Below are positions 32 to 16,161 of a stretch of 64,000 nucleotides of DNA, in pieces. Each line of letters begins with the position of its first letter. The stretch's first letter is position 1. The DNA is from Candidatus Moranbacteria bacterium UBA4824 (GTDB lineage: Bacteria > Patescibacteriota > Minisyncoccia > Moranbacterales > UBA2206), in NCBI GenBank assembly GCA_002400405.1, contig DHFM01000046.1:11722-75721 (forward strand), read 5' to 3'. The translations under genes and the position numbers were made by a program. A model generated the notes under the pieces. The model was not told where the DNA came from. It ran no database searches and was given only the letters and a program-made list of their open reading frames with translations.

Positions 32-1063
32 ATGAAACTAAAAAACATCAACGCGACTCTACTTATATTAGTGGGCTTATTATGTTTAAGCTTAGCTTTT
101 TTTGTGAACGCCACTGAAAACTCCAATGGTACAAAAAACATTTTTCTTGACTCTGATCAAGATGGACTCACTGACGCGGAAGAAAAAACCTATGGCACTA
201 ATCCACAAAAAGCCGACACAGACGGTGATGGATACACGGATGGAGCCGAAGTTAAAGCTGGTTATGACCCGCTAAAAAAAGCCCCCGGTGATAAACTTTC
301 CACTTCTCAAACAGCTAGCGTTAAAGGTGAAAGTGTTTCTGAAAAACAAGTTGTAAGCGAAGAAAAACCCAATCTAACTCAAGAAACAGCGCAAAAAATA
401 TCCACCCTCACAAATGAATCTGCTATCCAAAATCAAGAAATTGGCACAGAAGAAATTCAAACACTTCTCGATTCTATTATGAACGGCGAAGATTTCAAAA
501 ATGAACTACCAGAAATTTCTCCAGATGAGATAAAAATTTTGAAACAAAATTATAGCAGTCTAAGCAAAGAAAAAGCCCAAGAAAAAATGAAAGAAGACGC
601 CGTTAACTATTCTGTGGCCATTCTCTATATTTTTGCCAGCAATTCTCCAGAACCACTCACATCTTCTACTGATGCGATTTCAATTCTAAATAAAACCGTT
701 CAAAAAATTATAACTTCTTTTGCCTCTGGCAATCCGGATGTTCTTAATGATTTAAGCATAAGTGGCGAAAAAATTTATGAACAATTAAAGGAAGTAAAGG
801 TACCGGAAGATATGGTTGATACCCAAATAAAAGCTTTGCAATATGCCTCTTATGCTCAAGATTTGAAAAATTTAATCAAGCTTGATCCGACTGATCCACT
901 GGCTAATTTGTCCAACTATTCCAAAATTTCAACTTTCGTAGGCAGTCTAAATGAATTTTATGATGAAATAAAAAGTAAGTTGGAAAGTTATGGTGTCGAT
1001 TATGGCGAAGTGCAAGATAAATTGGAAGACAAAGGAATTTCCGGAGATATTTTCGGAAGCTAA
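32..1063 (+). CDS. Secreted Asp-rich protein with thrombospondin-type-3-like calcium-binding repeats
   Basis: Long ORF. N-terminal signal peptide (MKLKNINATLLILVGLLCLSLAFFVNA). DxDxDG-type motifs (DSDQDGLTDAEE, DTDGDGYTDGAEV). Otherwise hydrophilic. Confidence 0.5.
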   Translation: MKLKNINATLLILVGLLCLSLAFFVNATENSNGTKNIFLDSDQDGLTDAEEKTYGTNPQKADTDGDGYTDGAEVKAGYDPLKKAPGDKLSTSQTASVKGESVSEKQVVSEEKPNLTQETAQKISTLTNESAIQNQEIGTEEIQTLLDSIMNGEDFKNELPEISPDEIKILKQNYSSLSKEKAQEKMKEDAVNYSVAILYIFASNSPEPLTSSTDAISILNKTVQKIITSFASGNPDVLNDLSISGEKIYEQLKEVKVPEDMVDTQIKALQYASYAQDLKNLIKLDPTDPLANLSNYSKISTFVGSLNEFYDEIKSKLESYGVDYGEVQDKLEDKGISGDIFGS

Positions 1064-1115
1064 GGTATGGCTACAAAATTACAAATTTTTACAAAAATAC
1101 AAAAGTACAAAAAAT

Positions 1116-2129
1116 ATGTTGTTTCGTTTTAGAAATAAACTCTCAAAAATAATATTCACCTTTCTAATATTGGGATTTTTTTGCTTTTCCGGCGCACCAA
1201 AATCTCAAGCAGCTTTTTGGCCAGCAGTTGACCCCGGAATTACCTCCGGTTTGCAAAAAATATTAGATATGGTTAATGGTCTTATCGTTGGCACCCTAAA
1301 ACAGCAAGCTGTGCGAATGCTCAGTATGCAAGTTGATATGTTAGCGGGGAATGGTTCCGGAGGTGAAGCATCTTTTATTGTCCATTGGGAAACTTATTTA
1401 AAAGATGAACCACAAAATGCCACCAACATCTATATGAATGACTACCTCAGTCAAATGACTCTGGGAAGAAACACCTCTTCACTCTATTCTGCCGAAGGTT
1501 TTTCTGGTGGCGCTGGCGGTAGTTATGCGTCACAACTAGGACAACTTAATCAAGTCCTAGCTAATGCAAAAAATCCCAATTCAGTTCCTAAATTGACCTA
1601 TGAAGGCGAACCCTCACAAATGCTTCAAAGTGGCAATTTCAAAAATATGGAACTCTATCTTTCCGGCGTAAATAATCCTTGGAGCTTCAAAATTGCGGTT
1701 AAAAGTGAACAACAAAAAATATACAAAGAAAAACAAAACGAAGCTATGGTAAAAGCTATGGCCTACCAAGGTTTTCGCGGAACTTTAAGCGATGCCAATG
1801 GCTCCATTTCCAATCCCGGAAGTTTAGTCAAGTCGGCTTTGGAAAATGCTCAAGATATGCCTAACAGAATCCTGCAAAGTGCTTCCACCATTCCCGAAGT
1901 AGCCACCGCTCTCGTCACTCAGATGATCAATCAAACCATCACCCAAGGTTTTGTGAGCGTTCGCAATAAAACCGCCAAATCCACCGCCAATGTCACCAAA
2001 TATACCAATGCTACTAATCAAGCTATGAATCAATACGGTCCGGCTGTGAGATTTGGAGCAAATACTGCTCAAGACATTCAAAATAAACAAGCTCAAAAAG
2101 CCCAAGATGACGCAGTGGCGAATCAATAG
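1116..2129 (+). CDS. Hypothetical secreted/membrane-anchored Gly-rich protein (T4SS-locus associated)
   Basis: ORF track gives 990..2129. The internal ATG at 1116 (MLFRF...FLILGFFCFSGAPKSQA) yields a signal peptide and avoids overlap with the upstream gene. Gly-rich segments present. No recognisable family. Confidence 0.4.
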   Translation: MLFRFRNKLSKIIFTFLILGFFCFSGAPKSQAAFWPAVDPGITSGLQKILDMVNGLIVGTLKQQAVRMLSMQVDMLAGNGSGGEASFIVHWETYLKDEPQNATNIYMNDYLSQMTLGRNTSSLYSAEGFSGGAGGSYASQLGQLNQVLANAKNPNSVPKLTYEGEPSQMLQSGNFKNMELYLSGVNNPWSFKIAVKSEQQKIYKEKQNEAMVKAMAYQGFRGTLSDANGSISNPGSLVKSALENAQDMPNRILQSASTIPEVATALVTQMINQTITQGFVSVRNKTAKSTANVTKYTNATNQAMNQYGPAVRFGANTAQDIQNKQAQKAQDDAVANQ

Positions 2130-2139
2130 AATCAAATAA

Positions 2140-2180
2140 TTTTCAAGTTTCAATTCTCAATTTTCAGTGAATTTTCAAAA
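2140..2180. repeat. Repeat family C half-copy (ttttcaagtttcaattctcaattttcagtgaattttcaa)
   Basis: Left arm of family C only. Immediately 5' of the four-helix-bundle gene. Confidence 0.5.
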
Positions 2181-2197
2181 ATAAAATTTTCAAAAAA

Positions 2198-2572: not shown

Positions 2573-2573
2573 T

Positions 2574-2673: not shown

Positions 2674-2686
2674 TTTTATAATACAC

Positions 2687-4807
2687 ATGCCCCAACAAAC
2701 ACAAAAAAAAACAAATCCCCGCAAAATTTTCCTAACTATCATTTTCATCTTAGTGATTGGTTTTGGTTTTGGGTTTGGGAAAGGAACTGAAGCACTGGCT
2801 GAAAATCTTGGAAGTCCGATACAAGATATCAACACTCTTAAAGAGGCAACTGGTGATGGTAATGCCGATTCCTGTGATTTTTTGTTTCATCCTATAGATT
2901 GCACTCTACTTGCTCTTTTAGATCTTTTTGTAAAGCTAACAACCTTAGCCAGCACTCTTTTCAAATGGATAATGGGACCTAATAATATTTCTTCTATTCT
3001 TAGTAGTAAAGCCATCTATGAAGGCTGGGCTTTGGTACGCGACGCTCTCAATGTTTCATTTATTATGTTTTTGCTTTTTTCCGCGTTTGCTACTGTTTTT
3101 CAAATTGACAAATATAGCTACAAAAAAACTCTTCTCACTATCGTCATTATGGCCTTGCTGGTCAATTTTAGTTTTCCTATTTCTCGTTTCATTATTGATG
3201 TTTCCAATATGATGATGTATTATTTTGCCGATACTCTAAGTATTGGCTCTGACAAAAAAGACATCATTGTTGGTTTTGCCGATATCGCCGATTTACCAAA
3301 CATACTGCATCCAAAAGTAGGCAATGACACAACCAGTCTTTTGGCAGCGGTCGTTTTTGCTTTTATCTTTATGATAACTATGCTCACTATTTCCGTTCTT
3401 TTTGTGATTCGTACTCTCGCCTTGGCAGTTTTGATTATTTTTTCTTCCTTGGCTTTTGTCGGCACGGCTGTTCCACCCCTAGCCAAACATTCCGGCGATT
3501 GGTGGAAAAAACTTTTCGACTATTCTTTTTTTGGTCCGATTATGCTTTTTATGATGTATATCGCCTCTTCTCTTATGAATGAAATTCAAAAAGATGGACT
3601 TATAAATATGACAGAATTATCTATTCAAAATACCAAATCGGGAGCTTATGTTGCTTCGCTGGCCTTTTTCTTTCTTCCAATTATTATCCTTTGGATCGGT
3701 CTCGGCATTGCTAAAGAAATGAGTGGCTCCGCCGGAAGCGCCATCGTCGGCAAAGCACAAGGGTTTATGAAAGGGGCAGGGAAGTGGACGGCGAGTCCAA
3801 TTACTAGTGCATATAAGGCTGGAAAATTTGGTGCTGGCGCATTGGTTAAAAAAATTGATCGTGATCACATCGGCGTTAGAGGATTTATCAAGGCTTGGAA
3901 AGATAGGTCAAGTGAAATCGATACAGATAAAGTTGCTACTCAAGCAGCTAAATCAAGAGATCGCATTAGTAATTTTCCTTTATTTTTCGATAAAGACAAA
4001 AGAGATCCTAATTATTATCGTGATGTTGATGATGCAAATAAAATCGCAAAATACAAAAAAGAACAAGATCTTTATTCCACAACTGATGTTGATTTGGTTG
4101 AAGGTATAAGAAAATTATCTGGGAAAAAAGATACCGAATCTGGACAAAGAATGCAGGCATTTTTTCAGACTTTGGCTGGAAACAAGGATCTTAATGAATT
4201 TGGAAAACTAAAATATGGTTATTTCGATCCAAATTTAACGAAAAACGATATCGCTAACACACTCAGAGAAAGTTTAAATGAAGAAGATGTTGTATCGGCA
4301 ATGCATGACCTTGAAGATATTAATATTATGAATGGTGTTTATTCTATGTATGGATTAACAACAATCGATAAAGAAACAGGAAAAAGAAGATTGACTAAGA
4401 GTAGCACGGAACAGGAAGAAGCTGTTATGGGAAAACTTAAAAATATTGACTATCAGAAGTTTATGATAAATTTCCACCCAGATTCAGTTATAACTGAAGC
4501 TAAGGATGGCAGTCCAACTGGTATTAGTAATATCGGAAAATCTATTTTAGAATATGTAGAATCAAGAGATGCTGAATTTGTATCTAGACTTCGAGGTGAT
4601 GCTAGAGATAAGATAAAAGAAGCCATCAGAATACACGATGAAAAAGCTGAGCCTGCAGATAAAATATCCACAAAAAATCCTGTGCTTATGTTTGAATTAA
4701 GCGGAGGGAAAAAAGGACAAGAGGCTAGAAAAGCAGCTATTTTAGCTAGAGAAGAAGTAAAACAAAAAGAAACTGAGCCTGTAGTTAAGATCAATAGCAA
4801 AAAATAA
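2687..4807 (+). CDS. Polytopic membrane protein, VirB6/TrbL-like candidate, with long hydrophilic C-terminal domain
   Basis: 706 aa. N-terminal signal/TM followed by at least 6 hydrophobic helices in the first ~350 aa, then a charged C-terminal half. Position is in a locus with VirB3/VirB4/pilin homologs. The family assignment is an inference. Confidence 0.35.
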   Translation: MPQQTQKKTNPRKIFLTIIFILVIGFGFGFGKGTEALAENLGSPIQDINTLKEATGDGNADSCDFLFHPIDCTLLALLDLFVKLTTLASTLFKWIMGPNNISSILSSKAIYEGWALVRDALNVSFIMFLLFSAFATVFQIDKYSYKKTLLTIVIMALLVNFSFPISRFIIDVSNMMMYYFADTLSIGSDKKDIIVGFADIADLPNILHPKVGNDTTSLLAAVVFAFIFMITMLTISVLFVIRTLALAVLIIFSSLAFVGTAVPPLAKHSGDWWKKLFDYSFFGPIMLFMMYIASSLMNEIQKDGLINMTELSIQNTKSGAYVASLAFFFLPIIILWIGLGIAKEMSGSAGSAIVGKAQGFMKGAGKWTASPITSAYKAGKFGAGALVKKIDRDHIGVRGFIKAWKDRSSEIDTDKVATQAAKSRDRISNFPLFFDKDKRDPNYYRDVDDANKIAKYKKEQDLYSTTDVDLVEGIRKLSGKKDTESGQRMQAFFQTLAGNKDLNEFGKLKYGYFDPNLTKNDIANTLRESLNEEDVVSAMHDLEDINIMNGVYSMYGLTTIDKETGKRRLTKSSTEQEEAVMGKLKNIDYQKFMINFHPDSVITEAKDGSPTGISNIGKSILEYVESRDAEFVSRLRGDARDKIKEAIRIHDEKAEPADKISTKNPVLMFELSGGKKGQEARKAAILAREEVKQKETEPVVKINSKK

Positions 4808-4812: not shown

Positions 4813-6081
4813 ATGATTTCATCTATTCTAGAACAACAAATAAAAAACTTTTCACAACTTTCTAATGAAGAATGTGCTTTGATAATTAAAAATAATTTAT
4901 TAGAAGCGTTAGAAAGTGATTTATATATCGACTGGGAAATCGTTGCTAAATTTATTATGACTCCCTATGCTGATAGAGAAGCACTTTGCAAAATTTTAAA
5001 TTCCTCTATTAGAAAAAACATTCAACTAATCGGTAATTTTACCATAAGCGACTGGATTAGAAAATATCAAGATCAGTATTTAGGAAAAGAGAGAAATCCA
5101 AATACATTTTTTGAATATGTTAATAATAATCCTGAGGTTAAAAAATTATCAAAAAAAGATCAATTAAAACTTGCTAGAATTCTAAGGATCTATGATTATC
5201 TTTTAGTTATTCCTATTGCTGACCTTGATGGTCCAGTATCAAATATTTTAAGATTTTCAATGCAATCAGAATCTACGCCTGAAGAAAAATTAGCACAGAG
5301 TAAATCTGAAAACCTAGACCAATTTATTCCGCAAAAAATAACTCTTGAAAAACTATCAATTTCTGAAGCGCTGAAAAAATTCCCTGAAATCGGCGAACAA
5401 CTTATCACCTCAACACATATCAAACTCAAAAGTTTTCCAGAGCCTGTTCGACCATCAATCAATAATTGGCTTTCTGACTACACTTTCAATCTAGGTTTTG
5501 AATCACATAGCGCCATGGATCGCGGGACATATTTGTTCCGCAATGAAAATGCCAAAGTTTTGAACTCAACTGACCGCGAAAAAATTTCCTATATTTTAAA
5601 AGCCTACGATGAAAATTCGTTGGTAGATGTGAATGTCAACACTAAACAAGTTGTTTTTCCAAAACGCGAGCAAGCTAAAATAATTTCCAATTTCTCCGCC
5701 AAAGGCGGATCCGCCTCGGGCGGACAATATCCAATATCCAATAAAATTTCTAATAATGAAATTTCCAATATCAAAACTCCTACAAAAAGTCAATTCCAAG
5801 AAATATATAATGCAAAAAAACAAACAGAACAACCAAAAGATATCTTCAAAGAAGAAAGAATTGCCACAGAAAACAGAAATGCAGGCAATATAAATTTCAG
5901 CTCTCCACAAAGAATGCCCTATGAAAAACAAACCATCCAGCCAATTCAACCCCAAAAACCAGCCCCAGCCCCCCAACCAATGCGAATTTCCTCGCAAAAC
6001 CTCCGAAATAATAGTGATAAACCCCGAACCAATCCTAATGTGCCAACAGGAAACATAGTTAATTTAAAAGACAAACAATAA
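4813..6081 (+). CDS. Hypothetical protein with Pro/Gln-rich C-terminal tail (T4SS-locus associated)
   Basis: 422-aa ORF 6 nt after the VirB6-like gene stop. No TM segments. C-terminal low-complexity region (QPIQPQKPAPAPQPM). Confidence 0.4.
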   Translation: MISSILEQQIKNFSQLSNEECALIIKNNLLEALESDLYIDWEIVAKFIMTPYADREALCKILNSSIRKNIQLIGNFTISDWIRKYQDQYLGKERNPNTFFEYVNNNPEVKKLSKKDQLKLARILRIYDYLLVIPIADLDGPVSNILRFSMQSESTPEEKLAQSKSENLDQFIPQKITLEKLSISEALKKFPEIGEQLITSTHIKLKSFPEPVRPSINNWLSDYTFNLGFESHSAMDRGTYLFRNENAKVLNSTDREKISYILKAYDENSLVDVNVNTKQVVFPKREQAKIISNFSAKGGSASGGQYPISNKISNNEISNIKTPTKSQFQEIYNAKKQTEQPKDIFKEERIATENRNAGNINFSSPQRMPYEKQTIQPIQPQKPAPAPQPMRISSQNLRNNSDKPRTNPNVPTGNIVNLKDKQ

Positions 6082-6187
6082 TCAGAACCACTGATTATCA
6101 CATGAGCTCACTTGATTTCACTGAACAGAAATTTCATTCATGTGTAATCAGTATAATCAGTGCTAATCAGTGGTTCAGACATTTATG
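6079..6187. repeat. Repeat family D copy 1 (about 105-bp structured intergenic leader 'cagaaccactgattatcac...taatcagtggttcagacatttATG')
   Basis: Near-identical to 6584..6693, with 2 substitutions. Fills the whole intergenic space from the stop codon to the ATG of the next gene. Internal inverted repeats (aaccactgatta / taatcagtggtt). Confidence 0.7.
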
Positions 6188-6583
6188 CTATTTAATGTGC
6201 CACAATTCATCGACATCGAAGACAAGATTGTCGGTCCGCTCACAGCCAAACAACTTGGCTGGCTTGGAATTGCTGGTGTTTTACTCTTGATTTTTTGGAG
6301 CACTCTGGTTTTTTCAACTTTTGTCCCTGTCGCTCTCATCACCTTGGCAATTTTTGGCGCCTTGGCCTTCTACCGACCCTACAACCAACCCCTTTTAAAT
6401 TTTCTAATGTCTGGTGTTAATTTTTTTATGAAGCCCAAGGTCTATGTTTGGAAACGATTTTATGATAATATAAAAACAGTCAACCGAACACCACAAAAAC
6501 CTAAAGAAGAAATTATCGTTAAGAGAAAAGTTTTAGATAATGAAAAAATTAGAGAATTGACGGAAAGACTAAATAGAAAATAA
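6185..6583 (+). CDS. PrgI family / VirB3-like small membrane protein
   Basis: About 132 aa. Motif F.VP..I...DKI.GPLTAKQL followed by two TM helices, typical of PrgI/VirB3-like proteins. The ORF-track GTG start at 6170 lies inside repeat D, so ATG 6185 is preferred. Confidence 0.55.
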   Translation: MLFNVPQFIDIEDKIVGPLTAKQLGWLGIAGVLLLIFWSTLVFSTFVPVALITLAIFGALAFYRPYNQPLLNFLMSGVNFFMKPKVYVWKRFYDNIKTVNRTPQKPKEEIIVKRKVLDNEKIRELTERLNRK

Positions 6584-6693
6584 ATAATCAGAACCACTGA
6601 TTATCACATGAGCTCACTTGATTTCACTGAACGGAAATTTCGTTCATGTGTAATCAGTATAATCAGTGCTAATCAGTGGTTCAGACATTTATG
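6584..6693. repeat. Repeat family D copy 2
   Basis: Direct repeat of 6079..6187, again running from a stop codon to the next ATG. Confidence 0.7.
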
Positions 6694-7377: not shown

Positions 7378-7379
7378 AA

Positions 7380-7445: not shown

Positions 7446-7468
7446 TAATAAAACACAAAAAAACATCC

Positions 7469-9292: not shown

Positions 9293-9784
9293 ATGTACGA
9301 TACCCAAAAAAAACAAGAGTTAGAAAATAATCAGCAAGAAGCTCGTGAGCAAAAAGAAGCCCAGAAAAAAGAACAAGCCGAAAAAAATGCCTTGTCTTTT
9401 GAAAATTTAAAAAAACCGAAAAAAAAATCTCGCTTTTCTCAAATTAAAAAATCCGATCCGGTTTTTGCTGTTGCCTTTATGGCCGCAGGACTAAAGGACT
9501 TGCTTGACCTTTTTCAAGCCACAGGAGTGGGGTATGCTATAGTGATTATTATGACTATTTTGATTTTTATCTTTATCGGATTTATGATAATGATCGGGGT
9601 TTCTATGGGCGGAGGTGGGGGGATAAATATACTGCTGATGCTTTTTGGCGGAACCGCCGTGGAAATTCTCCCTGGGATAAGTTTTTTGCCAATGACTATG
9701 GGATTAGTAGCTATGATATATTTATCAGTTTTGAAAAAAAGAAAAAAGAATGCTCAAAAAATTCAAGAACAAAACTACGCCTAA
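9293..9784 (+). CDS. Small membrane protein (charged N-terminus, C-terminal TM helices), T4SS-associated
   Basis: 163-aa ORF 7 nt after virB4. K/E/Q-rich N-terminus, then 2-3 hydrophobic helices with a Gly-rich loop. Confidence 0.4.
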   Translation: MYDTQKKQELENNQQEAREQKEAQKKEQAEKNALSFENLKKPKKKSRFSQIKKSDPVFAVAFMAAGLKDLLDLFQATGVGYAIVIIMTILIFIFIGFMIMIGVSMGGGGGINILLMLFGGTAVEILPGISFLPMTMGLVAMIYLSVLKKRKKNAQKIQEQNYA

Positions 9785-9945: not shown

Positions 9946-10614
9946 ATGCGCTATTATCACAAAAGAAAATTGTCCACTCGCTTAGTCGAGAATAAAGAAA
10001 CTGCCATTACTTTCTTGGTGATTGTTTTTTGCCTGTTTTTGTCTATTTTTTTCCCTGCACAAAACTCTATTCAACTTATTACTAAAAACATTTTCTTTCT
10101 AATTATCGTTCCAATTCTTTATTATAAGCTAATCCTCAAAAAAAATATTTCTGATTTCGGTCTAACTTTGGGCGACAAAAAATCCGGAATTTTTTGGGGA
10201 GTATCGATGTTTTTAGTCACCATTTTGACTTTTTTTCTACTCTATTCCTATACGGATTTCAAAAAAAATTATCTACTTTCATCTTATGTCGTCCATAATT
10301 TCTGGATTTTTTTGCTTTATGAGCTTATTGTCGCCAATTTATTTGTTTTTATTCAAGAATTTTTTTGGCGAGGATTTATTTTGCTTTATTTTTCCAAAAA
10401 AATCAACTCTCTTGCAATTTTTTTGCAATTTATTATTTTCATATTAATTGCAATTCCAATAGAGAATTCCTTTTGGCAGATGGCGCCGACTCTCGTAATT
10501 TCTCTATTTTCTGGTATAATAGTTTATAAGAGTCGCTCTATTTTCTATTCTTGGCTCTCAGCTCTGTTTTCACTGATAATTTTAGACAGTTTTATAATTT
10601 ATCATCTAAAATGA
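9946..10614 (+). CDS. CPBP-family (CAAX-protease-like) intramembrane metalloprotease
   Basis: 222 aa, multi-TM. Motif QEFFWRG (EExxxR-like) and FIIYH (FxxxH). Stop overlaps the ATG of the next gene (ATGA). Confidence 0.45.
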   Translation: MRYYHKRKLSTRLVENKETAITFLVIVFCLFLSIFFPAQNSIQLITKNIFFLIIVPILYYKLILKKNISDFGLTLGDKKSGIFWGVSMFLVTILTFFLLYSYTDFKKNYLLSSYVVHNFWIFLLYELIVANLFVFIQEFFWRGFILLYFSKKINSLAIFLQFIIFILIAIPIENSFWQMAPTLVISLFSGIIVYKSRSIFYSWLSALFSLIILDSFIIYHLK

Positions 10615-13379
10615 AAAATCAAAAGTTCAAAAAAAATCAATTTTTCTTCAATATTATACTTGTTGCTGTTTTCTTTTTTTCTCAAACTGGAATAGTTCAA
10701 GCAATTTCCGTTGACAATGTTATGGGAGTTAAATCTCCTCCTAATTTTTTGGATTCTATACTGGATGGTTATGGGATAGATAAAAATAAAGTCAAACAAC
10801 AAGCTCAAATTCTTAATTATGAAGATCAAAAAAAAGCTGCGCCCCAAGTTTCACTTTTCTTTGTTCCTGCTAATCCGGATGAGGGAGAAAAAATAACCGT
10901 AACCGCTTCGCCAACATATTTCATGAATGATCCCAAAGATCTATATTACACTTGGTTTTTAAAAAGCAAAGATTGCACTGACAAAAAATCAGATGATGAA
11001 AAATATTCCTATAATTCAAATTGCGACCTAAATAACGATGGGGAAGTTGATATAAAAGATTATAAAATAAAAGCCACAAGAATCATTGTTAATGGAGGCT
11101 TTATTATAAGTTCCGATGATATCTATAAATCATCCTCTGATAACGACGGCTATACGGCTTCTTCTGGTGGTAATGATCAAAAAGAAAAAATTCCTCATTG
11201 TTATATTCGCAATATAACCTCAGGCAAGGAATATGAGATTGATTGTACCAACGAAGAAGATAGTCATTTGTTTCCTCGTGCTGAATTTGAAAATTTTGTT
11301 GATTATAAGGGAAACGAAATAGATCTAGATAAACCAACCGGTGATGGAGATTTTGGCAGAGATGAAGAAAAATTTTGGCATACTGATCCTAACAGCAATG
11401 ATACGGCCAATCTGGGTCATCCTGACGAAGCTAATGTAACCGGTTTAGGAGTTACTAGTTTTACTTGGAGTTACCAAAAAGGCGACAAAGTTGGAGTAGC
11501 GGTAGAGGGAGTTTCCACTGAACCACCACCAACAGATGATTCTTCTTATAAAACCACCTGGGCAATGAATGAGGTAGTAGGTGATTTTGATGCTGATTTT
11601 ACTAATGATGATTATCCACAAACAACTGATGAAATTATCTCTACCACAATTGATCCATCTGAACCTACGCAAACGATTTATTTAACCAAAACAACTCTCC
11701 GAGAAATTGATGGCGAGGTTATTGATGGCATAGGCAATATCAAAATTACTGAAACAATGCACAATGTCGTGAGAGTCACTGCTACTCAAGTTTTGGTAAG
11801 TGACACTAATGTAGCTGAAACTGAAGAAACTCCCAATCCAATTATCACTTATTCTACGGCTTCCTTTTCCTCTGACGATTTTGAACTTGATGATGGCAAA
11901 ATAGAAAAACCATCCGATCTTGATGAATTTTTATACGACTCATTGGTTTCTCCCCAAGAAAACAGTGCTGGAAGCAACAAGCTTGATATTAACCTTTCTT
12001 TTTATCCTAACAACCCCATGAATGATCCGGCTGGAATTTCTGGAGATGGGGACATACTTACCATCCATTCTTCCATTTCCAATGCTAAAGACACTAATTA
12101 TCTACAATACGATTGGAAAGTTTTTGCTGGAGCGGATATTAGTTCTGATGTGTGGGGTGAACCCCTTCTAAAAAAAGATCTATTAGAATCAACTCAATCA
12201 GTTGGCTTAGGAATTGATACTTTTAAATTCAAATTAGGCTTTTCTGATCCTGATACAGTCAAGTTTCTCAAGGTTGTTTTAACTGTCACGGAAAACACCG
12301 GAGAAGAGCATCCTCGTAAAAACACTCAGGATGTTATTATACCGATTAATTCCACTACGGAAAAAATTAAAGTGTCTAATGTTTCAATGACAGACTTAAC
12401 CGACCCCGCTGTTGATCCAAATAATTTATCTCGAGTAAAACTTACTCAAGGAGATGAAATTTGCAACTCTAATGATTTGGAAAAAGCTCTTTGCGCTGTG
12501 GCTAAAAATCAAATTATCGCAATTTCTGTTCCAAAAGATAATTTTGAAGACACTGCCGCTAATAATCCCGATTTTCTTTGGACAATTGACGGCAAACCCT
12601 TTTCCTATCCCTATTGTTTTTTTGAAGATTGTAAGGAGGAAAAGCAAACTTACGTGGCGTATTTCCCAATTCTCAAGGAAGTTGGTGAACAATATTCTAT
12701 AAATTTAACCGCTACCAATGAAGATGGAGAGAAAATAAATTTAACCCGAAATTTCAAAGTAGTTGATCCGGAAATTACCATTATTTCCGACGACACAAAA
12801 AATTGCGATCAAGTTATGCTAGGGGAGTATTTTGATGTCAATGGTCAATCATTTCCTGATTTAAGTCAACTTAATTTTTGGGCTTATACTAATTCCCCTA
12901 TAAAATTGCGAGTTGCCCTGACCGGTTTTTCTGTTTTACCGGAAAATTTAAGTTGGCAAGTTGATAATAACTCTATAAATTCATCCAATGCTGGTGTTTA
13001 TAATTTTAATATTGATAATACTGGAATTCTAACTTTACCTCCCAAAGAAAAACAAGGGGAAAGCTATAATATCTCAGTTGGTACGCTTTATACGCAAAAT
13101 AATTTAGCCAAAAAAGCCCTTAACGCTATTTGGGGAGTGACGTACAATCAATTTTATGAAAAAATCGTCTCTGATGATGCTATTATCACCATGCAAGACG
13201 CCCCAACCACCACTGCTAGTAAAAAATCAAAAAAAATATTCGCCACTATCTATTCATCCACTCCCGCCTATCTAGCTTTTCTTCTGCGAATAGTTCTCAC
13301 AATTTCTCTGATTCTGTTTATAACTAAATTGATTTTTTCATTTTCTCCGGAGACTATTTCGAGAGAAGAAGACTACTAA
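10611..13379 (+). CDS. Large secreted Asp-rich surface protein with C-terminal membrane anchor
   Basis: About 922 aa from ATG 10611. Signal peptide (FFFNIILVAVFFFSQTGIVQA). Many D/N/T-rich and Cys-pair segments. C-terminal hydrophobic anchor (AYLAFLLRIVLTISLILFITKLIF). Confidence 0.45.
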   Translation: MKNQKFKKNQFFFNIILVAVFFFSQTGIVQAISVDNVMGVKSPPNFLDSILDGYGIDKNKVKQQAQILNYEDQKKAAPQVSLFFVPANPDEGEKITVTASPTYFMNDPKDLYYTWFLKSKDCTDKKSDDEKYSYNSNCDLNNDGEVDIKDYKIKATRIIVNGGFIISSDDIYKSSSDNDGYTASSGGNDQKEKIPHCYIRNITSGKEYEIDCTNEEDSHLFPRAEFENFVDYKGNEIDLDKPTGDGDFGRDEEKFWHTDPNSNDTANLGHPDEANVTGLGVTSFTWSYQKGDKVGVAVEGVSTEPPPTDDSSYKTTWAMNEVVGDFDADFTNDDYPQTTDEIISTTIDPSEPTQTIYLTKTTLREIDGEVIDGIGNIKITETMHNVVRVTATQVLVSDTNVAETEETPNPIITYSTASFSSDDFELDDGKIEKPSDLDEFLYDSLVSPQENSAGSNKLDINLSFYPNNPMNDPAGISGDGDILTIHSSISNAKDTNYLQYDWKVFAGADISSDVWGEPLLKKDLLESTQSVGLGIDTFKFKLGFSDPDTVKFLKVVLTVTENTGEEHPRKNTQDVIIPINSTTEKIKVSNVSMTDLTDPAVDPNNLSRVKLTQGDEICNSNDLEKALCAVAKNQIIAISVPKDNFEDTAANNPDFLWTIDGKPFSYPYCFFEDCKEEKQTYVAYFPILKEVGEQYSINLTATNEDGEKINLTRNFKVVDPEITIISDDTKNCDQVMLGEYFDVNGQSFPDLSQLNFWAYTNSPIKLRVALTGFSVLPENLSWQVDNNSINSSNAGVYNFNIDNTGILTLPPKEKQGESYNISVGTLYTQNNLAKKALNAIWGVTYNQFYEKIVSDDAIITMQDAPTTTASKKSKKIFATIYSSTPAYLAFLLRIVLTISLILFITKLIFSFSPETISREEDY

Positions 13380-13385
13380 AAAATT

Positions 13386-13503
13386 TCCAAGTTTCAAGTT
13401 TCAATTTTCAATGAATTTTCAATATAAAAATTTTCAAAATTAAAGATATTGTAAATTGAAAATTAATCATTCACTGAAAATTGAGAATTGTAAATTGAAA
13501 ATT
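13386..13503. repeat. Repeat family C copy (inverted-repeat element, arms 'caagtttcaattttcaat' / 'attgaaaattga')
   Basis: Same arms as 2574..2673 and the half-copy at 2140..2180. Intergenic between the surface protein and the pilin gene. Confidence 0.6.
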
Positions 13504-13517
13504 AAAATAAAATTCCC

Positions 13518-14492
13518 ATGAAATTCACAAAAACAAAAATAATATTTCTACTTTTATTATTCATCAATTTGATTCCTGTTTTTTGTTTGGCTCAAACTTA
13601 TAAGCCAATGGAAGGAATTCCGGGGTTTATTACTCCCGGTCAAGATGTTAATTTTCCAGATTATTTAATGGCGATCTATAAATTCGGTCTTTGGGCGATT
13701 GGAATTTCGGCCGTTTTTATGATTATGATCGGTGGCTATATGTATCTCACTTCCGCTGGCAATAACGCCCAAACCGGCAAAGCCAAAGGAATCATCACCG
13801 ACGCTATTGCGGGAGTTATCTTAGCGCTAGTGTCCTATCTTCTTCTCTACACCATCAATCCAGAACTGGTTCAATTCAAACCGCTTAATGGAATAACCTC
13901 ATCTACGTCTTCATCTTCTGGAACAGGTACAGGAGGCAGTGGAGGCAGCACTGACGGCACAGATAAATACTACAAAAAAGCTTGTCCAGATACATCTTCA
14001 ACCTCTCCAATTGTTTTTTCTGGAGCTACTGATATTAACTTAAATCATGATTGTGATAAATATGATTCTCTTTTTAATTCTTATGGACAACAATATCAAA
14101 TTGATCCTAAAATATTAAAAACAATCGCTCAAATAGAGTCGATTTGCGGAAAATTAACAAAAAGCGACGCCGGAGCCTGTGGATTAATGCAACTCATGGA
14201 AGATACCGCACATAAAACTTGCGCTGAATTACTAGCCAGCGACGCTTTATCCGTAGAATCAGCCGCCAAATACATAAGCAATAACAAATCTGCGCACGGA
14301 GGAAATGTTGAAAAAATTCTAGCTGGATATAATAGTGGTTATGCAACAACCGGAACTGGAGGGCTTGCACCAAGCGAAGATTGCAAAAGCACGCCCGGAA
14401 CCCTAAAATATCAATGTTGCGTAAAGCCCGACGAACTCGATGAAACAATTGGATATGTTTGGAAAGGTATGGGAGTAATGAAAAAACAATAA
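13518..14492 (+). CDS. CPR-type T4SS pilin (TrbC/VirB2-like) fused to a C-terminal lytic transglycosylase (SLT/VirB1-like) domain
   Basis: Signal peptide. Pilin core (LWAIGISAVFMIMIGGYMYLTSAGN...AKGIITDAIAGVILALVSYLLLYTINP). Ser/Gly-rich linker. C-terminal segment with family-1 lytic transglycosylase motifs (IAQIES, GLMQL, AGYNSGY). Confidence 0.6.
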   Translation: MKFTKTKIIFLLLLFINLIPVFCLAQTYKPMEGIPGFITPGQDVNFPDYLMAIYKFGLWAIGISAVFMIMIGGYMYLTSAGNNAQTGKAKGIITDAIAGVILALVSYLLLYTINPELVQFKPLNGITSSTSSSSGTGTGGSGGSTDGTDKYYKKACPDTSSTSPIVFSGATDINLNHDCDKYDSLFNSYGQQYQIDPKILKTIAQIESICGKLTKSDAGACGLMQLMEDTAHKTCAELLASDALSVESAAKYISNNKSAHGGNVEKILAGYNSGYATTGTGGLAPSEDCKSTPGTLKYQCCVKPDELDETIGYVWKGMGVMKKQ

Positions 14493-14510
14493 TTTTTTAA
14501 AAAATTTATT

Positions 14511-14987
14511 ATGCTCACTAAATTAAAAATCACAATTTTTTTGTTATTCATCGGAATCTTTTTGCCAATTTTTTCTGCCAATGCCGGCCTTGTTCCTTGC
14601 GGACTAAGCAATGATGATTCATCAACTCCAAATATTAAAGAGGATCAGCCTTGCACGCTTTGTCATTTGATTATTGGGATACAGAATATCGTTTCCTTTG
14701 GCTTGAAATTGCTCATCACTGTGGCCGCGGTGGGAATTTTCATTTCCGGAGTAATGTATATCATTTCTTCCGGTAGTGAAGAAATGATGAAAAATGCTAA
14801 AGCCTTTCTCACTGCCAGCCTCACAGGTTTCACCATCACGCTAATGGCTTGGTTTTTTGTTTATACCGTAATGTGGATTCTTTCCGCCGATCCGGAATCG
14901 ATAACCGATCCTAATGAAAAAGTTCTCATAGAACGCAAAGCTTGGAATAAGTTCGAATGTAGCACAGAAAGTTCCGCCCTAAAATAA
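14511..14987 (+). CDS. CPR-type T4SS pilin (TrbC/VirB2-like)
   Basis: 158 aa. Signal peptide, conserved LVPCG and C..C motifs, two hydrophobic helices (VAAVGIFISGVMYIISSG / ASLTGFTITLMAWFFVYTV). Confidence 0.6.
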   Translation: MLTKLKITIFLLFIGIFLPIFSANAGLVPCGLSNDDSSTPNIKEDQPCTLCHLIIGIQNIVSFGLKLLITVAAVGIFISGVMYIISSGSEEMMKNAKAFLTASLTGFTITLMAWFFVYTVMWILSADPESITDPNEKVLIERKAWNKFECSTESSALK

Positions 14988-15003
14988 TAAACAAATAGAA
15001 AAA

Positions 15004-16161
15004 ATGTCTACTCTCAAGAAAATATTCTTTCTTTCCCTTTTTATCTTTTTTCTTTCCCTGCTTTTTTGGGGAATTTATGTTTTGTCTTTTAAAAAAACCG
15101 AACCGACTAAAAATACTATTCTCCCGCTAAATAATTCCAATAGTAATTTAACTTTACCAGAAAAAATTTCCCCTGCCTCAAGCACACAAAAAATTTCCTT
15201 AGTCTCAAAGGAGCCTGTTATTTCCCCAACAATTTCATCTAATGGAGGAAATATTCGATACTACTCAACTTCCGGAGAACTGAAAGAAACTGATTTTTCC
15301 GGCAGTACTTCAAAAAAAATAACTGATAAAACTATTTTTGGCCTAATAAGCGGAGTTTGGTCACCGGACAAATCAAAAATTCTCCTAAAAACCAAAAAAG
15401 GCGCTAGTCCATATTTTTTGCTTTTTGACACCAAAACCAATCAGCTCACTATGCTCAACAGTAATATCAATGAAATTTCTTGGCAGACCATATCCTCTAA
15501 AATATTCTATAAGTATTTTGATTCAAATGGAAAAAAGAGCTCTCTAAATGTTTCTGATGCCAATGGGGAAAATTGGAAAAAAATAATTGACTTGCCTCAT
15601 GAAAAAATATCCTTTGCTCAAATTCCTCGTTCAGGACTGGTTTCTTTTTGGAATAATGGCGATGCTAATTATCAAACCAATCTTCAAACAGCCTCCCTTA
15701 TCGGAGAAGATATTAAAACTATCTACCAGAGCGGTTTTGGCGCTGATTATCTTTGGGATAATTCCGGCAATCATTGTTTGGTGAGTCAAACGGACACTAA
15801 GGGTGGCACAAAATTACAGCTTGGCATTATAAATTATAACGGCGAAGGCTACAAAATTCTTGGATTGCCTACGATTGTTTCAAAATGTACTTGGTCAAAA
15901 GACAATGCAACCATTTATTGTGCTCTTCCAGGAAACATTCCCGAAAATTCAATCTTGCCCAATGATTATAAGACTGGAAAATTTACCACTGTCGATACTT
16001 TTTGGAAAATTAACACTGATACTGGCGAAAAAACTCGTTTAGTAGAAACCAGCGACATCTCCCAAGACTTTGATGCTTCTGAATTTTTTCTCAATACCGA
16101 CGAAAGCTTGCTATTTTTTGTGAATAAAATAGATAAGAAGTTATATAAAATAATCCTTTAG
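15004..16161 (+). CDS. Membrane-anchored protein with TolB-like beta-propeller-like repeats
   Basis: 385 aa. N-terminal TM. Repeated segments reminiscent of TolB/WD-like blades (SWSPDKSKILL; SDANGENWKKI). Weak assignment. Confidence 0.3.
   Translation: MSTLKKIFFLSLFIFFLSLLFWGIYVLSFKKTEPTKNTILPLNNSNSNLTLPEKISPASSTQKISLVSKEPVISPTISSNGGNIRYYSTSGELKETDFSGSTSKKITDKTIFGLISGVWSPDKSKILLKTKKGASPYFLLFDTKTNQLTMLNSNINEISWQTISSKIFYKYFDSNGKKSSLNVSDANGENWKKIIDLPHEKISFAQIPRSGLVSFWNNGDANYQTNLQTASLIGEDIKTIYQSGFGADYLWDNSGNHCLVSQTDTKGGTKLQLGIINYNGEGYKILGLPTIVSKCTWSKDNATIYCALPGNIPENSILPNDYKTGKFTTVDTFWKINTDTGEKTRLVETSDISQDFDASEFFLNTDESLLFFVNKIDKKLYKIIL

What the first reader, a model, noticed from the sequence alone, without database searches (positions are those of the whole stretch)
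32..16161. Type-IV-secretion/conjugation-like envelope locus with two CPR-type pilins, one fused to a lytic transglycosylase domain
Co-directional plus-strand genes encode the following:
- secreted Asp-rich Ca-binding-like proteins;
- a VirB6-like polytopic protein;
- a PrgI/VirB3-like protein;
- split VirB4;
- a CPBP protease;
- a ~920-aa anchored surface protein;
- two TrbC/VirB2-type pilins with the LVPCG / two-helix architecture.

The first pilin (13518..14492) carries a C-terminal SLT-type lytic transglycosylase domain (ES, GLMQL, AYNSGY motifs). Pilin and VirB1-like cell-wall hydrolase functions are normally separate genes. A covalent pilin-muramidase fusion would place peptidoglycan-cutting activity on the secreted or pilus subunit itself. 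No VirD4 coupling protein, relaxase or VirB8-11 homologs are visible in the window. The locus may therefore be a minimal uptake/attachment apparatus rather than a conjugation machine.
Basis: partly seen in the sequence, partly recalled or inferred. Interest (0 to 1): 0.65.

Follow-up and report, generated by a model that had tools for sequence, protein, structure and literature searches.

The report
Pilin-like protein fused to wall-cutting enzyme
In a known kind of type IV secretion gene cluster from an uncultured ultrasmall bacterium (Candidatus Moranbacteria), one pilin-like membrane protein is permanently fused to a cell-wall-cutting enzyme, and relatives carry other wall-cutting enzymes on the same module, a design not described in the papers I could search.

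Summary
Window 32-16161 is the chromosomal type IV secretion (T4SS) locus typical of Patescibacteria. It holds a VirB6-like gene, PrgI/VirB3, TrsD, VirB4, a CPBP protease, a ~920-aa surface protein and two pilin paralogs, about 8 kb from dnaA. No relaxase or VirD4 is in the window. This locus type was published in 2023-2025, and the "split VirB4" is the known TrsD + VirB4 pair.

The gene at 13518-14492 is a real fusion:
- a signal peptide;
- a two-helix T4SS_pilin-like hairpin;
- a disordered Ser/Gly linker;

The same gene appears in two independent assemblies and in over 70 homologous protein clusters.

The wider pattern is new. Across about 80 Moranbacteria species, the pilin module at this syntenic slot nearly always carries a C-terminal peptidoglycan hydrolase. 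The type varies: SLT, SLT_3, LAS zinc peptidase or NlpC/P60.

Most likely these proteins supply the missing VirB1 function, docked to the machine by a pilin module. Display on a pilus to attack a host cell wall is not excluded.

Verdict: a new variant of a known kind, of moderate interest.

The parts
32..1063 (+). Secreted protein with bacterial thrombospondin type-3 (Asp-rich, Ca-binding) repeats, at the upstream edge of the locus.
   Evidence: Pfam TSP3_bac 9.9e-15 with two stretches. A homolog lies upstream of the VirB6-like gene in the distant relative L031.
990..2129 (+). Secreted or anchored protein of unknown family. The probable start is the ATG at 1116, in front of a hydrophobic signal.
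   Evidence: ORF and sequence. No Pfam or NCBIfam hit. An ortholog sits at the same position in L031 (3e-28).
2687..4807 (+). VirB6-like polytopic membrane protein with a long hydrophilic C-terminal region.
   Evidence: No direct Pfam hit. Orthologs were linked by phmmer in 23 loci. One ortholog hits TrbL/VirB6 PF04610 at 2.6e-8 and another hits TrbL_3 weakly.
4813..6081 (+). Conserved locus protein of unknown function (422 aa, no TM segment).
   Evidence: Found in 37 related loci between the VirB6-like gene and PrgI. No Pfam or PDB sequence match.
6170..6583 (+). PrgI / VirB3-like small membrane protein (gene call 6185-6583, 132 aa).
   Evidence: Pfam PrgI 8.4e-10, 39.5 bits against a cut-off of 27. 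Gene call.
6676..7377 (+). TrsD / TraC-like protein. It is the separately encoded homolog of the VirB4 N-terminal domain (gene call 6691-7377, 228 aa).
   Evidence: NCBIfam VirB4_plasma 2.1e-11, TrsD 1.3e-7, CD1110 positions 19-120. Precomputed PF26593 TraC-like. A 226-244-aa gene directly before virB4 is present in all related loci. Described in PMC12102498.
7379..7446 (.). 68-nt palindromic repeat element that fills the trsD-virB4 gap. It is not a frameshift scar.
   Evidence: Hairpin of -27.9 kcal/mol, z -8.6. A second copy at 63549-63616 is about 94% identical.
7469..9286 (+). VirB4 ATPase of the monoderm/CD1110 type, lacking the N-terminal domain.
   Evidence: NCBIfam conju_CD1110 1.8e-107, 360.5 bits against a cut-off of 325, positions 186-734 of 752. 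Pfam P-loop_TraG 8.3e-31.
9293..9784 (+). Conserved small polytopic membrane protein of unknown role (163 aa).
   Evidence: Sequence. Orthologs directly after virB4 in 30 loci. No family hit.
9946..10614 (+). CPBP / Rce1-like intramembrane protease.
   Evidence: Pfam Rce1-like 1e-7, 32.6 bits against a cut-off of 22.4. Conserved at this position in related loci, including one where it was not called.
10611..13379 (+). A ~922-aa surface protein with an N-terminal signal peptide and a C-terminal TM anchor. The ORF list starts it at TTG 10551.
   Evidence: Sequence. Gene call of 922 aa. Orthologs directly upstream of the pilin-hydrolase gene in 48 loci. No Pfam hit.
13518..14492 (+). The pilin-lytic transglycosylase fusion (324 aa). 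Residues 1-25 are the signal peptide (13518-13592). Residues 46-113 are the two-helix pilin hairpin (13653-13856). Residues 119-150 are the S/G/T linker (13872-13967). Residues 151-324 are the Cys-rich GH23 domain (13968-14489). The catalytic Glu207 codon is 14136-14138.
14511..14987 (+). Stand-alone GLVPCG-type T4SS pilin (158 aa) and candidate major pilin. It is a paralog of the pilin module of the fusion.
   Evidence: Pfam T4SS_pilin 3.4e-4. hhalign against the fusion family gives 97.5%, E 6e-12. The ortholog alignment shows that 8 of 17 species extend it with a LAS-type peptidase domain.
15004..16161 (+). Membrane-anchored extracytoplasmic beta-propeller (TolB-like fold). It is the most constant neighbour of the pilin-hydrolase gene.
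   Evidence: AF2 pLDDT 87.5, with a TM helix at 3-29 and a propeller at 64-385. Foldseek matches TolB and S9/tricorn propellers at about 1e-10. It follows the pilin-hydrolase gene, directly or after further pilin genes, in about 69 loci, even where virB4 is not adjacent.

Best explanation
Window 32-16161 is the chromosomal, origin-proximal T4SS locus of a Candidatus Moranbacteria (Patescibacteria, class Paceibacteria) genome. It is of the published type related to the monoderm MPF-FATA class.

The product of 13518-14492 is a bimodular protein. A Sec signal peptide is removed after Ala25. A VirB2-like two-helix hairpin then inserts with its N-terminus outside, a short Lys-rich loop (TSAGNNAQTGKAKG) in the cytoplasm and helix 2 leading back out. 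A flexible Ser/Gly/Thr linker of about 30 residues follows. The C-terminal disulfide-rich GH23 lytic transglycosylase is therefore held outside the membrane, within reach of the cell's own peptidoglycan.

I propose that it is the VirB1 equivalent of this system. Its pilin module is a paralog of the neighbouring GLVPCG pilin, so it should be recruited to the same VirB6/PrgI/TrsD-VirB4 assembly platform. There the enzyme opens the wall exactly where the pilus or channel must pass. It may also be incorporated as a minor subunit.

Related species fill the same slot with a LAS zinc peptidase, an SLT_3 lysozyme-like domain or an NlpC/P60 domain. They often have one glycosidase-pilin and one peptidase-pilin side by side. 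That reproduces, on two pilin modules, the glycosidase-plus-peptidase design of the wall hydrolases of Gram-positive T4SSs (PrgK, TraG of pIP501, CwlT).

Shown here: domain composition, intact catalytic residues, conservation and synteny. Inferred: topology, target wall, docking and co-assembly.
For: Fusion and fold:
- SLT 7.7e-16 and T4SS_pilin 2.4e-4.
- AF2 gives a hairpin, a disordered linker and a confident C-terminal domain.
- PDB profile hits to MltC, Slt70 and MltE, with E207 aligned to the catalytic Glu.

Conservation:
- E207, G222, M224, Q225, Y271 and several Cys are invariant in 35 homologs.
- Two independent assemblies.

Synteny:
- The order VirB6L, unk422, PrgI, TrsD, VirB4, mem163, CPBP, surface protein, pilin-hydrolase, (pilin), propeller holds in about 45 species.

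Swappable hydrolase domains on the same pilin module:
- Among species representatives: 27 SLT, 27+5+3 LAS-like, 13 SLT_3 and 3 other LT-like.
- Pfam finds SLT, SLT_3, NLPC_P60, Phage_lysozyme2 and HH_signal.
- The LAS assignment rests on invariant H, H, D, H, H residues and profile hits to the Hedgehog N-domain (3e-4) and to DD-carboxypeptidase 1lbu (0.12).
- 112 of 138 single-module representative clusters have a C-terminal extension of at least 120 aa. Of these, 99 match one of my six hydrolase-type profiles.
- Several loci hold two such genes side by side: a glycosidase-type plus a LAS-type in L026, L039 and L034, and two SLT-type in L044.

Other points:
- The pilin modules are paralogs.
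- The pilin module is more conserved (56% mean pairwise identity) than the enzyme (45%) or the linker (27%). This fits a module that contacts conserved machinery.
- The organism makes its own peptidoglycan: a class A PBP and a Mur ligase are in the window.
- PMC12102498 notes that most Patescibacteria with VirB2 lack a recognisable VirB1, and that monoderm VirB1 homologs combine SLT and peptidase domains.
Against: - There is no experimental datum for any member.
- In more distant Moranbacteria, the pilin-hydrolase and propeller pair sits next to ribonucleotide reductase genes with no virB4 within 10 kb. In another lineage a pilin-SLT gene lies away from any T4SS gene. Linkage to the T4SS is therefore not obligatory.
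- The variety and exchange of hydrolase types is more than one would expect for a housekeeping hole-puncher. It resembles the pattern of polymorphic effectors.
- Nothing shows which wall, the cell's own or a host's, is the substrate.
Confidence: 0.5

Rival explanations
1. The fusion is a true pilus subunit, probably a minor one polymerised together with the GLVPCG pilin. It displays the hydrolase on the outside of an extracellular T4SS pilus. The enzyme attacks the cell wall of the host or prey bacterium to which the ultrasmall cell attaches. The interchangeable glycosidase and peptidase domains are host-directed warheads.
For: - The pilin module is a paralog of the neighbouring pilin.
- The C-terminus of a two-helix pilin hairpin is extracytoplasmic (model).
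- C-terminal domains are exchanged among at least 5 hydrolase families on one conserved module, as in polymorphic effectors.
- The domain is Cys-rich, which fits extracellular stability.
- The profile and fold searches also find cell-wall-penetrating proteins of phages (T7 gp16, a tape-measure protein) and the T6SS effector Tse3.
- Lytic transglycosylases have been proposed to damage host envelopes in Patescibacteria (PMC11665869).
- The T4SS and its pilins are essential for epibiotic growth in a Saccharibacterium (PMC10633639).
Against: - No pilus has been seen in Moranbacteria.
- A 17-kDa domain on every subunit would crowd a VirB2-type filament. This is my own estimate and was not computed.
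- Glycosidase-plus-peptidase is also the normal composition of self-directed T4SS hydrolases in monoderms.
- No immunity gene is evident next to the fusion.
- The linker of 14-36 residues is short.
Confidence: 0.27
2. The proteins are ordinary envelope autolysins for growth, division or envelope turnover. They use a pilin-like hairpin simply as a membrane anchor and work with the beta-propeller and the neighbouring polysaccharide genes. Adjacency to the T4SS is inherited gene order without functional coupling.
For: - The pilin-hydrolase, propeller and Wzy block persists where no virB4 is nearby (L054-L085).
- The propeller is TolB-like in fold. TolB belongs to the Tol-Pal cell-envelope system and binds the peptidoglycan-associated lipoprotein Pal.
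- Downstream genes are O-antigen-ligase-like, GT2 and flippase genes.
Against: - 80 of 86 orthologs match the T4SS_pilin family.
- A bare pilin paralog sits next door.
- In about 45 species the gene lies inside an uninterrupted co-directional T4SS array.
- PF18895 proteins are the pilins that the published T4SS surveys count.
Confidence: 0.12
3. The fusion is a precursor. A protease, possibly the CPBP enzyme encoded in the locus, cuts in or near the linker. This releases a mature pilin of about 95 residues for polymerisation and a free secreted lytic transglycosylase. The process would be analogous to C-terminal trimming of TrbC or to release of VirB1*.
For: - The linker is disordered and of low complexity.
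- Bare members of the same pilin clade end 6-18 residues after the conserved INPxL motif, which is where the linker starts.
- A CPBP protease is conserved in the locus.
- C-terminal processing of RP4 TrbC and of VirB1 is established knowledge and was not tested here.
Against: - No conserved cleavage motif exists in the linker: 27% identity and lengths of 14-36 residues.
- CPBP proteases are not known to process pilins.
- There are no proteomic data.
Confidence: 0.1
4. The fusion is an artefact: a frameshift, an assembly error, or two adjacent genes joined by sequencing error.
For: None found.
Against: - The identical ORF occurs in two independent assemblies.
- Of the 120 listed homolog clusters, 72 carry the SLT domain and 108 the pilin module.
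- In 80 species loci the module and an extension lie in one frame.
Confidence: 0.01

Closest known systems
Patescibacteria (CPR) T4SS as described by Quinonero-Coronel et al. 2025 (PMC12102498) and Wang et al. 2023 (PMC10633639)
   Same: - A monoderm-type VirB4 with a separately encoded TrsD directly upstream.
- PrgI/VirB3, a VirB6-like protein and VirB2-like PF18895 pilins in tandem.
- No relaxase and no nearby coupling protein.
- A chromosomal position next to rnpA, rpmH, dnaA and dnaN.
   Different: Those papers treat VirB1 and VirB2 as separate components. They state that most genomes with VirB2 lack VirB1, and they do not mention any pilin-hydrolase fusion. Here the hydrolase is part of a pilin-like protein, and the fused domain type varies between species.
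VirB1 of Agrobacterium and other specialised T4SS/T3SS lytic transglycosylases (for example EtgA)
   Different: VirB1 and EtgA are soluble periplasmic proteins encoded by their own genes. Here the domain is covalently tethered to a two-helix pilin-like membrane module in a monoderm.
Membrane-anchored two-domain wall hydrolases of Gram-positive T4SSs (PrgK of pCF10, TraG of pIP501, CwlT of ICEBs1, Tn916/CTn1 Orf17-type)
   Same: - They belong to a monoderm T4SS.
- The hydrolase is held at the membrane.
- Glycosidase and peptidase activities are both supplied (described in PMC12102498).
   Different: Those enzymes carry both activities on one polypeptide with a single N-terminal TM helix. Here each activity sits on its own pilin-type hairpin. 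The window's locus has only the glycosidase, and the peptidase partner appears in relatives.
FlgJ of beta- and gamma-proteobacterial flagella (rod-cap domain fused to a peptidoglycan hydrolase)
   Different: It belongs to a different machine, a different structural module and a different glycosidase family (GH73). The analogy is one of design, not of descent.
Modular type IV pilins (for example Streptococcus sanguinis PilB and PilC; from my own knowledge, not checked in the paper library)
   Same: A pilin module carries a grafted functional domain that the filament would display.
   Different: Those are type IV pili (T4P) pilins with adhesin modules. Here the module is a VirB2-like T4SS pilin and the grafts are enzymes.
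Phage penetration proteins with lytic transglycosylase domains (T7 gp16, tape-measure proteins)
   Same: A GH23 domain is fused to a structural protein that crosses a cell wall. Both are detected by the family profile (2.4e-5 and 1.3e-4).
   Different: They act on the target cell's wall from outside during infection. There is no pilin module and no T4SS context.

Membership tests
Patescibacteria-type T4SS (MPF-FATA-related) | A VirB4 ATPase of the monoderm (CD1110/FATA-like) type | tested here: met
   NCBIfam conju_CD1110 scores 360.5 bits against a cut-off of 325, E 1.8e-107. The phylogenetic placement used in PMC12102498 was not repeated.
Patescibacteria-type T4SS (MPF-FATA-related) | A TrsD gene (homolog of the VirB4 N-domain) encoded next to virB4 | tested here: met
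   6676-7377 hits TrsD at 1.3e-7 and VirB4 N-terminal positions. PF26593 TraC-like is on record. The gene is conserved in all related loci.
Patescibacteria-type T4SS (MPF-FATA-related) | VirB3/PrgI and VirB6 membrane components near virB4 | tested here: met
   PrgI scores above the Pfam cut-off. VirB6 is supported only through orthologs: TrbL 2.6e-8 in one ortholog and a weak TrbL_3 hit in another.
Patescibacteria-type T4SS (MPF-FATA-related) | No relaxase or coupling protein in the cluster, and a chromosomal position near dnaA | tested here: met
   Neither was found among the window ORFs that were scanned, which include every ORF of at least 400 aa. dnaA is at 24116-25492 and dnaN at 25780-26937. 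The rest of the genome was not available.
T4SS_pilin (PF18895) / VirB2-like pilins | A match to the family model at the curated threshold | tested here: inconclusive
   The window proteins score 21.5 and 21.1 bits against a gathering score of 26.6 (E 2.4e-4 and 3.4e-4). Of the orthologs, 80 of 86 match at E<0.01, best 1.3e-9.
T4SS_pilin (PF18895) / VirB2-like pilins | A signal peptide followed by two hydrophobic helices joined by a short polar loop | tested here: met
   The sequence and the AF2 model, with helices 5-23, 46-78 and 83-113. The alignment shows the conserved loop SAGN...GKAKG.
T4SS_pilin (PF18895) / VirB2-like pilins | Detectable homology to experimentally established VirB2, TraA or TrbC pilins | tested here: not met
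T4SS_pilin (PF18895) / VirB2-like pilins | Polymerises into an extracellular filament | not testable with these tools
   This needs microscopy or biochemistry.
GH23 / SLT family lytic transglycosylases | The SLT domain model at the curated threshold | tested here: met
   PF01464 scores 58.2 bits against a cut-off of 21.3, E 7.7e-16.
GH23 / SLT family lytic transglycosylases | A catalytic Glu in the E-S motif, plus the GLMQ and AYNxG motifs | tested here: met
   E207-S208, G222-L-M-Q and A269-G-Y-N-S-G-Y. E207, G222, M224, Q225 and Y271 are invariant in 35 homologs. E207 aligns with the Glu of the E-S motif in Slt70 and MltC.
GH23 / SLT family lytic transglycosylases | The goose-lysozyme/SLT fold | tested here: met
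GH23 / SLT family lytic transglycosylases | Forms 1,6-anhydroMurNAc products from peptidoglycan | not testable with these tools
   An enzyme assay is required.
VirB1-type T4SS-dedicated hydrolase | [quoted passage not shown] | tested here: met
   The gene is co-directional and lies 4.2 kb downstream of virB4. Its position is conserved in about 45 species.
VirB1-type T4SS-dedicated hydrolase | A separate, soluble (diderm) or single-TM-anchored (monoderm) protein | tested here: not met
   It is anchored by a pilin-type hairpin fused in the same polypeptide.
LAS zinc peptidases (the domain on pilin paralogs of related species, not in the window) | The H-x(n)-D and H-x-H zinc ligands in the SxHxxGxAxD ... 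HxH pattern | tested here: met
   H73, H81, D88, H130 and H132 are invariant or nearly invariant in 27 sequences. Profile hits to Hedgehog N-domains reach 3e-4 and to DD-carboxypeptidase 1lbu 0.12. Pfam HH_signal hits one member.

The most novel reading that the evidence does not exclude
Moranbacteria use VirB2-like pilins as a modular display platform. A conserved pilin module polymerises into a T4SS pilus. Its C-terminus carries interchangeable peptidoglycan-degrading warheads: lytic transglycosylase, lysozyme-like, LAS peptidase or NlpC/P60 domains. The pilus itself then becomes an enzymatic drill that breaches the wall of the host bacterium during episymbiosis. This would be a mode of T4SS action without translocated effectors.
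Probability: 0.22. Interest if true: 0.85.

Novelty: new variant of a known kind. Interest (0 to 1): 0.55.

Why it matters
Patescibacteria T4SSs are essential for the epibiotic life of the one species tested. They are unusual among monoderm systems in having VirB2-like pilins, and their function is unknown (PMC10633639, PMC12857230, PMC11665869). The 2025 survey concluded that pilus biogenesis in these bacteria seems not to need a VirB1 homolog, because most genomes lack one (PMC12102498).

The present analysis shows that, at least in Moranbacteria, wall-degrading enzymes are present but hidden inside pilin-like proteins. It also shows that the same pilin module carries glycosidases or peptidases of at least five families.

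This gives three things:
- a concrete and testable candidate for how the wall is opened, or how a host wall is attacked;
- an annotation rule, since these proteins are currently labelled either "pilin" or "SLT domain protein";
- a first example, to my knowledge, of modular VirB2-type pilins.

It remains a computational finding in uncultured organisms.

Tried and rejected
- Frameshift or assembly artefact: rejected.
- VirB4 pseudogenised by a split: rejected. TrsD + VirB4 is conserved in all relatives and is published. The 91-nt gap holds a repeated palindromic element.
- Lipoprotein anchoring of the fusion: the Cys23 context (P-V-F-C) does not fit a lipobox and is not conserved.
- A conserved processing site in the linker: none found.
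- Direct sequence link of the pilin module to solved pilins: none.
- PDB profile searches for the VirB6-like protein and the 422-aa protein: nothing usable.
- Profile search for the propeller gave only weak TolB hints. Structure prediction was needed.
- The first attempt to scan genomes with the 35-sequence alignment failed for lack of conserved stretches. A 12-sequence alignment worked.
- The afdb50 fold library was unavailable. I could therefore not check how UniProt or the AlphaFold database represent the architecture outside this clade.
- Literature searches for PF18895, PF18896, SLT_3 or a pilin-hydrolase fusion found only the general T4SS papers.
- The held part of that paper's supplement lists PF18895 proteins as VirB2 and has no SLT entry.
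- The promoter and terminator scan was not above chance.
- tRNA and Rfam scans of the window were empty.

Full report
**What is in the window**

Fifteen co-directional plus-strand ORFs fill 32-16161. Family searches identify the following:
- a secreted protein with bacterial thrombospondin-type Ca-binding repeats (32-1063, TSP3_bac 9.9e-15);
- PrgI/VirB3 (6170-6583, 8.4e-10);
- a CPBP/Rce1-like protease (9946-10614, 1e-7);
- a VirB4 ATPase (7469-9286; P-loop_TraG 8.3e-31; NCBIfam conju_CD1110 360.5 bits against a cut-off of 325).

The VirB4 match starts at position 186 of the 752-position model. The missing N-terminal part is matched by the preceding ORF 6676-7377 (VirB4_plasma 2e-11, CD1110 positions 19-120, TrsD 1.3e-7). 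The 706-aa polytopic protein at 2687-4807 has no direct hit. One of its orthologs matches TrbL/VirB6 at 2.6e-8 and another matches TrbL_3 weakly.

The genes at 13518-14492 and 14511-14987 both hit T4SS_pilin PF18895 (2.4e-4 and 3.4e-4, below the gathering score). The first also hits SLT PF01464 at 7.7e-16 over residues 185-278. No ORF of 400 aa or more anywhere in the window is a VirD4-type coupling protein. None of the mid-sized ORFs that were scanned is a relaxase. dnaA and dnaN lie at 24.1-26.9 kb, and a class A PBP and a Mur ligase further on show that the organism makes peptidoglycan. The window has no tRNA or Rfam match.

**Origin and reality of the fusion**

The fusion protein is identical to a protein on a 79.6-kb ENA metagenome contig. 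It is also identical to one on an independently assembled Logan contig from run SRR5324142. A protein search gave 141 homologs. Of the 120 listed clusters, 72 carry the SLT domain and 108 the pilin module. The named ones come almost entirely from Candidatus Moranbacteria/Moraniibacteriota. The fusion is therefore a real, conserved gene and not a frameshift or a chimera.

**Anatomy of the fusion**

An alignment of 35 full-length homologs shows four parts:
1. a signal peptide;
2. a conserved mature N-terminus Y-x-P-M-E-x-I-P-G-F (not the LVPCG motif);
3. two hydrophobic helices joined by the loop SAGN...GKAKG and ending in a nearly invariant INPxL;
4. a Ser/Gly/Thr/Pro-rich linker, then a Cys-rich domain in which E207, C221, G222, M224, Q225 and Y271 are invariant.

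Across the 35 homologs, the pilin module is the best conserved part (56% mean pairwise identity). The enzyme is at 45% and the linker at 27%. The linker is 14-36 residues long in all but two divergent homologs and has no conserved cleavage motif. The pilin module of the fusion and the neighbouring GLVPCG pilin are homologous (hhalign 97.5%, E 6e-12). A profile of the module finds no solved pilin by sequence, so "VirB2-like" rests on architecture, on the Pfam family and on genomic context.

**The locus type is already known**

Quinonero-Coronel et al. 2025 (PMC12102498) describe the Patescibacteria T4SS in these terms:
- a VirB4 clade related to the monoderm MPF-FATA class;
- TrsD, a homolog of the VirB4 N-terminus and the commonest associated component, encoded next to virB4;
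- PrgI/VirB3, VirB6 and arrays of VirB2-like pilins detected with PF18895;
- almost no relaxases;
- frequent location near dnaA and dnaN.

Wang et al. 2023 (PMC10633639) showed that the T4SS and its pilins are essential in a Saccharibacterium. A 2025 review repeats this (PMC12857230). The window matches this description point by point, and the "split VirB4" is the TrsD + VirB4 pair. The 2025 paper also states that most genomes with VirB2 lack VirB1, and that pilus biogenesis therefore seems not to need it. It mentions fusions only for VirB3-VirB4. I found no paper in the searchable library that describes a pilin-hydrolase fusion.

**Synteny**

Contigs carrying homologs at 57%, 46% and 36% identity show the same gene order. 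A scan of one genome per species returned 80 loci, almost all labelled Moranbacteria. phmmer with the window's proteins found the following conserved order in about 45 of them:

VirB6-like, 422-aa protein, PrgI, TrsD, VirB4, 163-aa membrane protein, CPBP, ~900-aa surface protein, pilin-X, optional GLVPCG pilin(s), 385-aa protein.

It is a TM-anchored beta-propeller with a TolB-like fold (AF2 pLDDT 87.5; Foldseek about 1e-10). It is the most constant neighbour of pilin-X. In a more distant group of loci (L054-L085), only pilin-X and the propeller are found. In L066 the upstream genes are ribonucleotide reductase and peroxiredoxin.

**The wider pattern**

Among 86 pilin-X proteins (one per species locus, plus the window), 80 have a C-terminal extension of at least 60 residues. 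The extensions fall into these clusters:

| Cluster | Type | n |
|---|---|---|
| 0 | SLT/GH23 | 27 |
| 1 | LAS-type zinc peptidase | 27 |
| 2 | SLT_3 lysozyme-like | 13 |
| 3 and 5 | further LAS-like | 5 and 3 |
| 4 | another lytic-transglycosylase-like | 3 |

The cluster 1 domain has invariant H, H, D, H, H residues in the pattern SxHYxGxAxD ... HIH. Its profile hits Hedgehog N-domains at 3e-4 and a DD-carboxypeptidase at 0.12. Pfam on the same set finds T4SS_pilin in 80, SLT in 22, SLT_3 in 7, and single NLPC_P60, Phage_lysozyme2 and HH_signal hits.

Some loci have two such genes side by side, for example SLT + LAS in L026 and L039. The GLVPCG pilin is bare in the window. In 8 of 17 aligned species it also carries a LAS-type domain.

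An exhaustive search of 1.84 billion representative proteins with the 99-residue mature pilin module gave 18,263 hits at E of 1e-3 or better and 2,579 at 1e-10 or better. Of the best 150:
- 138 have one module;
- 112 of these have a C-terminal extension of at least 120 residues;
- 99 of the 112 match one of my six hydrolase-type profiles;
- of the 13 left over, about six have an NlpC/P60-like pattern and two a VanY-like pattern by eye, and two more resemble the SLT and LAS types.

Two other pilin subtypes fused to the same SLT family also exist (P0054, with LVPCG, and P0072/P0107). One of them lies far from any T4SS gene.

**Interpretation**

The robust conclusion is that a clade of T4SS_pilin-like modules in Moranbacteria serves as the N-terminal carrier of interchangeable peptidoglycan hydrolases. 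The window's gene is the lytic-transglycosylase version. It sits in the T4SS array next to a bare pilin paralog.

With the signal peptide removed and a Lys-rich loop between the helices, the enzyme should be extracytoplasmic. This is an inference from the positive-inside rule and from VirB2 topology.

I consider a T4SS-dedicated VirB1 equivalent most likely (about 0.5). In this reading the pilin module docks the enzyme at the assembly platform, and the enzyme cuts the cell's own wall. Four observations support it:
- glycosidase plus peptidase is exactly the composition of monoderm T4SS hydrolases;
- the carrier module is more conserved than the enzyme;
- the organism has its own wall;
- the reading removes the apparent lack of VirB1.

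The main rival (about 0.27) is display on a pilus to breach a host wall. The modular exchange of warheads and the parasitic biology of the phylum favour it. The remaining readings are weaker: a T4SS-independent autolysin role together with the propeller (about 0.12), and a precursor that is cleaved in the linker (about 0.1). None of these can be decided without experiments.

**Verdict**

The locus itself is already known. The pilin-hydrolase architecture and its family-wide modularity appear to be undescribed, and they count as a new variant of a known kind.

Noticed in passing
window 7379-7446 and 63549-63616: A 68-nt near-perfect palindromic element (RNA hairpin of -27.9 kcal/mol, z -8.6) fills the gap between trsD and virB4. 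It recurs about 94% identical at 63.5 kb. It looks like a small repeated hairpin element (REP/MITE-like or a shared terminator).
   Followed up: partly
window 2198-2572; L004 2321-2683; L005 2356-2748; L029, L043, L048: A 23S_rRNA_IVP-family four-helix-bundle gene (with a bAvd hit in L005) sits inside the T4SS array, but at different positions in different species. In the window it lies before the VirB6-like gene. Elsewhere it lies between the 422-aa gene and prgI. This suggests an independently inserted or mobile small gene.
   Followed up: partly
window 15004-16161 and about 69 related loci: A TM-anchored beta-propeller (TolB-like fold) lies just downstream of the pilin-hydrolase gene, directly or after further pilin genes. 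It stays there even where virB4 is not within 10 kb (for example L066, next to ribonucleotide reductase). Its role is unknown.
   Followed up: partly
proteins P0241, P0242, P0247, P0365 and 8 others: Twelve of the best 150 representative hits carry 2 to 6 tandem copies of the pilin module in one polypeptide of 460-890 aa. Such poly-pilin proteins would be odd for a polymerising subunit.
   Followed up: no
proteins P0055, P0071, P0101, P0102, P0002: Some members of the pilin clade carry Cys-rich N-terminal insertions between the signal peptide and the Y-x-P-M-E motif, with repeats of the form C-x-C ... C-x-x-x-C ... GA-x-YY. These may occur with or instead of a C-terminal enzyme.
   Followed up: no
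L003/L011 11053-11931; L016, L025, L028, L037, L043, L048: The GLVPCG-type pilin next to the fusion, which is bare in the window, carries in many relatives a C-terminal domain with the motifs SCHYGG ... AVD ... NH-x-H. This looks like a LAS-type peptidase, and Pfam does not recognise it.
   Followed up: partly
window 49334-52363 (minus strand): A 1009-aa ORF contains two T2SSE (PilB/GspE-type) ATPase stretches plus an MshEN domain. It appears to be a tandem-fused secretion ATPase of the type IV pilus kind, not VirB11.
   Followed up: no
window 40934-43483: A Fic/DOC-domain protein with a C-terminal HTH (40934-42019, minus strand) and an AbiEii nucleotidyltransferase toxin (42653-43483, plus strand) lie close together. 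They may be toxin-antitoxin or defence genes.
   Followed up: no
window 33445-37088 (minus strand): A Mur-ligase-like gene, an ATP-grasp gene and a fused 'sugar-transfer ATP-grasp + Zn protease' gene lie next to the class A PBP gene. This may be a cell-wall peptide modification cluster.
   Followed up: no
L018, L031, L032, L042, L044, L045 and others: Many contigs with full Moranbacteria-type T4SS synteny are titled 'uncultured Bdellovibrionales bacterium' in their records. This looks like mislabelled taxonomy in those submissions.
   Followed up: no
window 13481-13508: A sigma-70-like promoter match (TTGAGA-16-TAAAAT, 10 of 12) lies 10 nt upstream of the pilin-SLT start, in the only sizeable gap of the downstream half of the array (138 nt). 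The scan as a whole is not above chance.
   Followed up: partly
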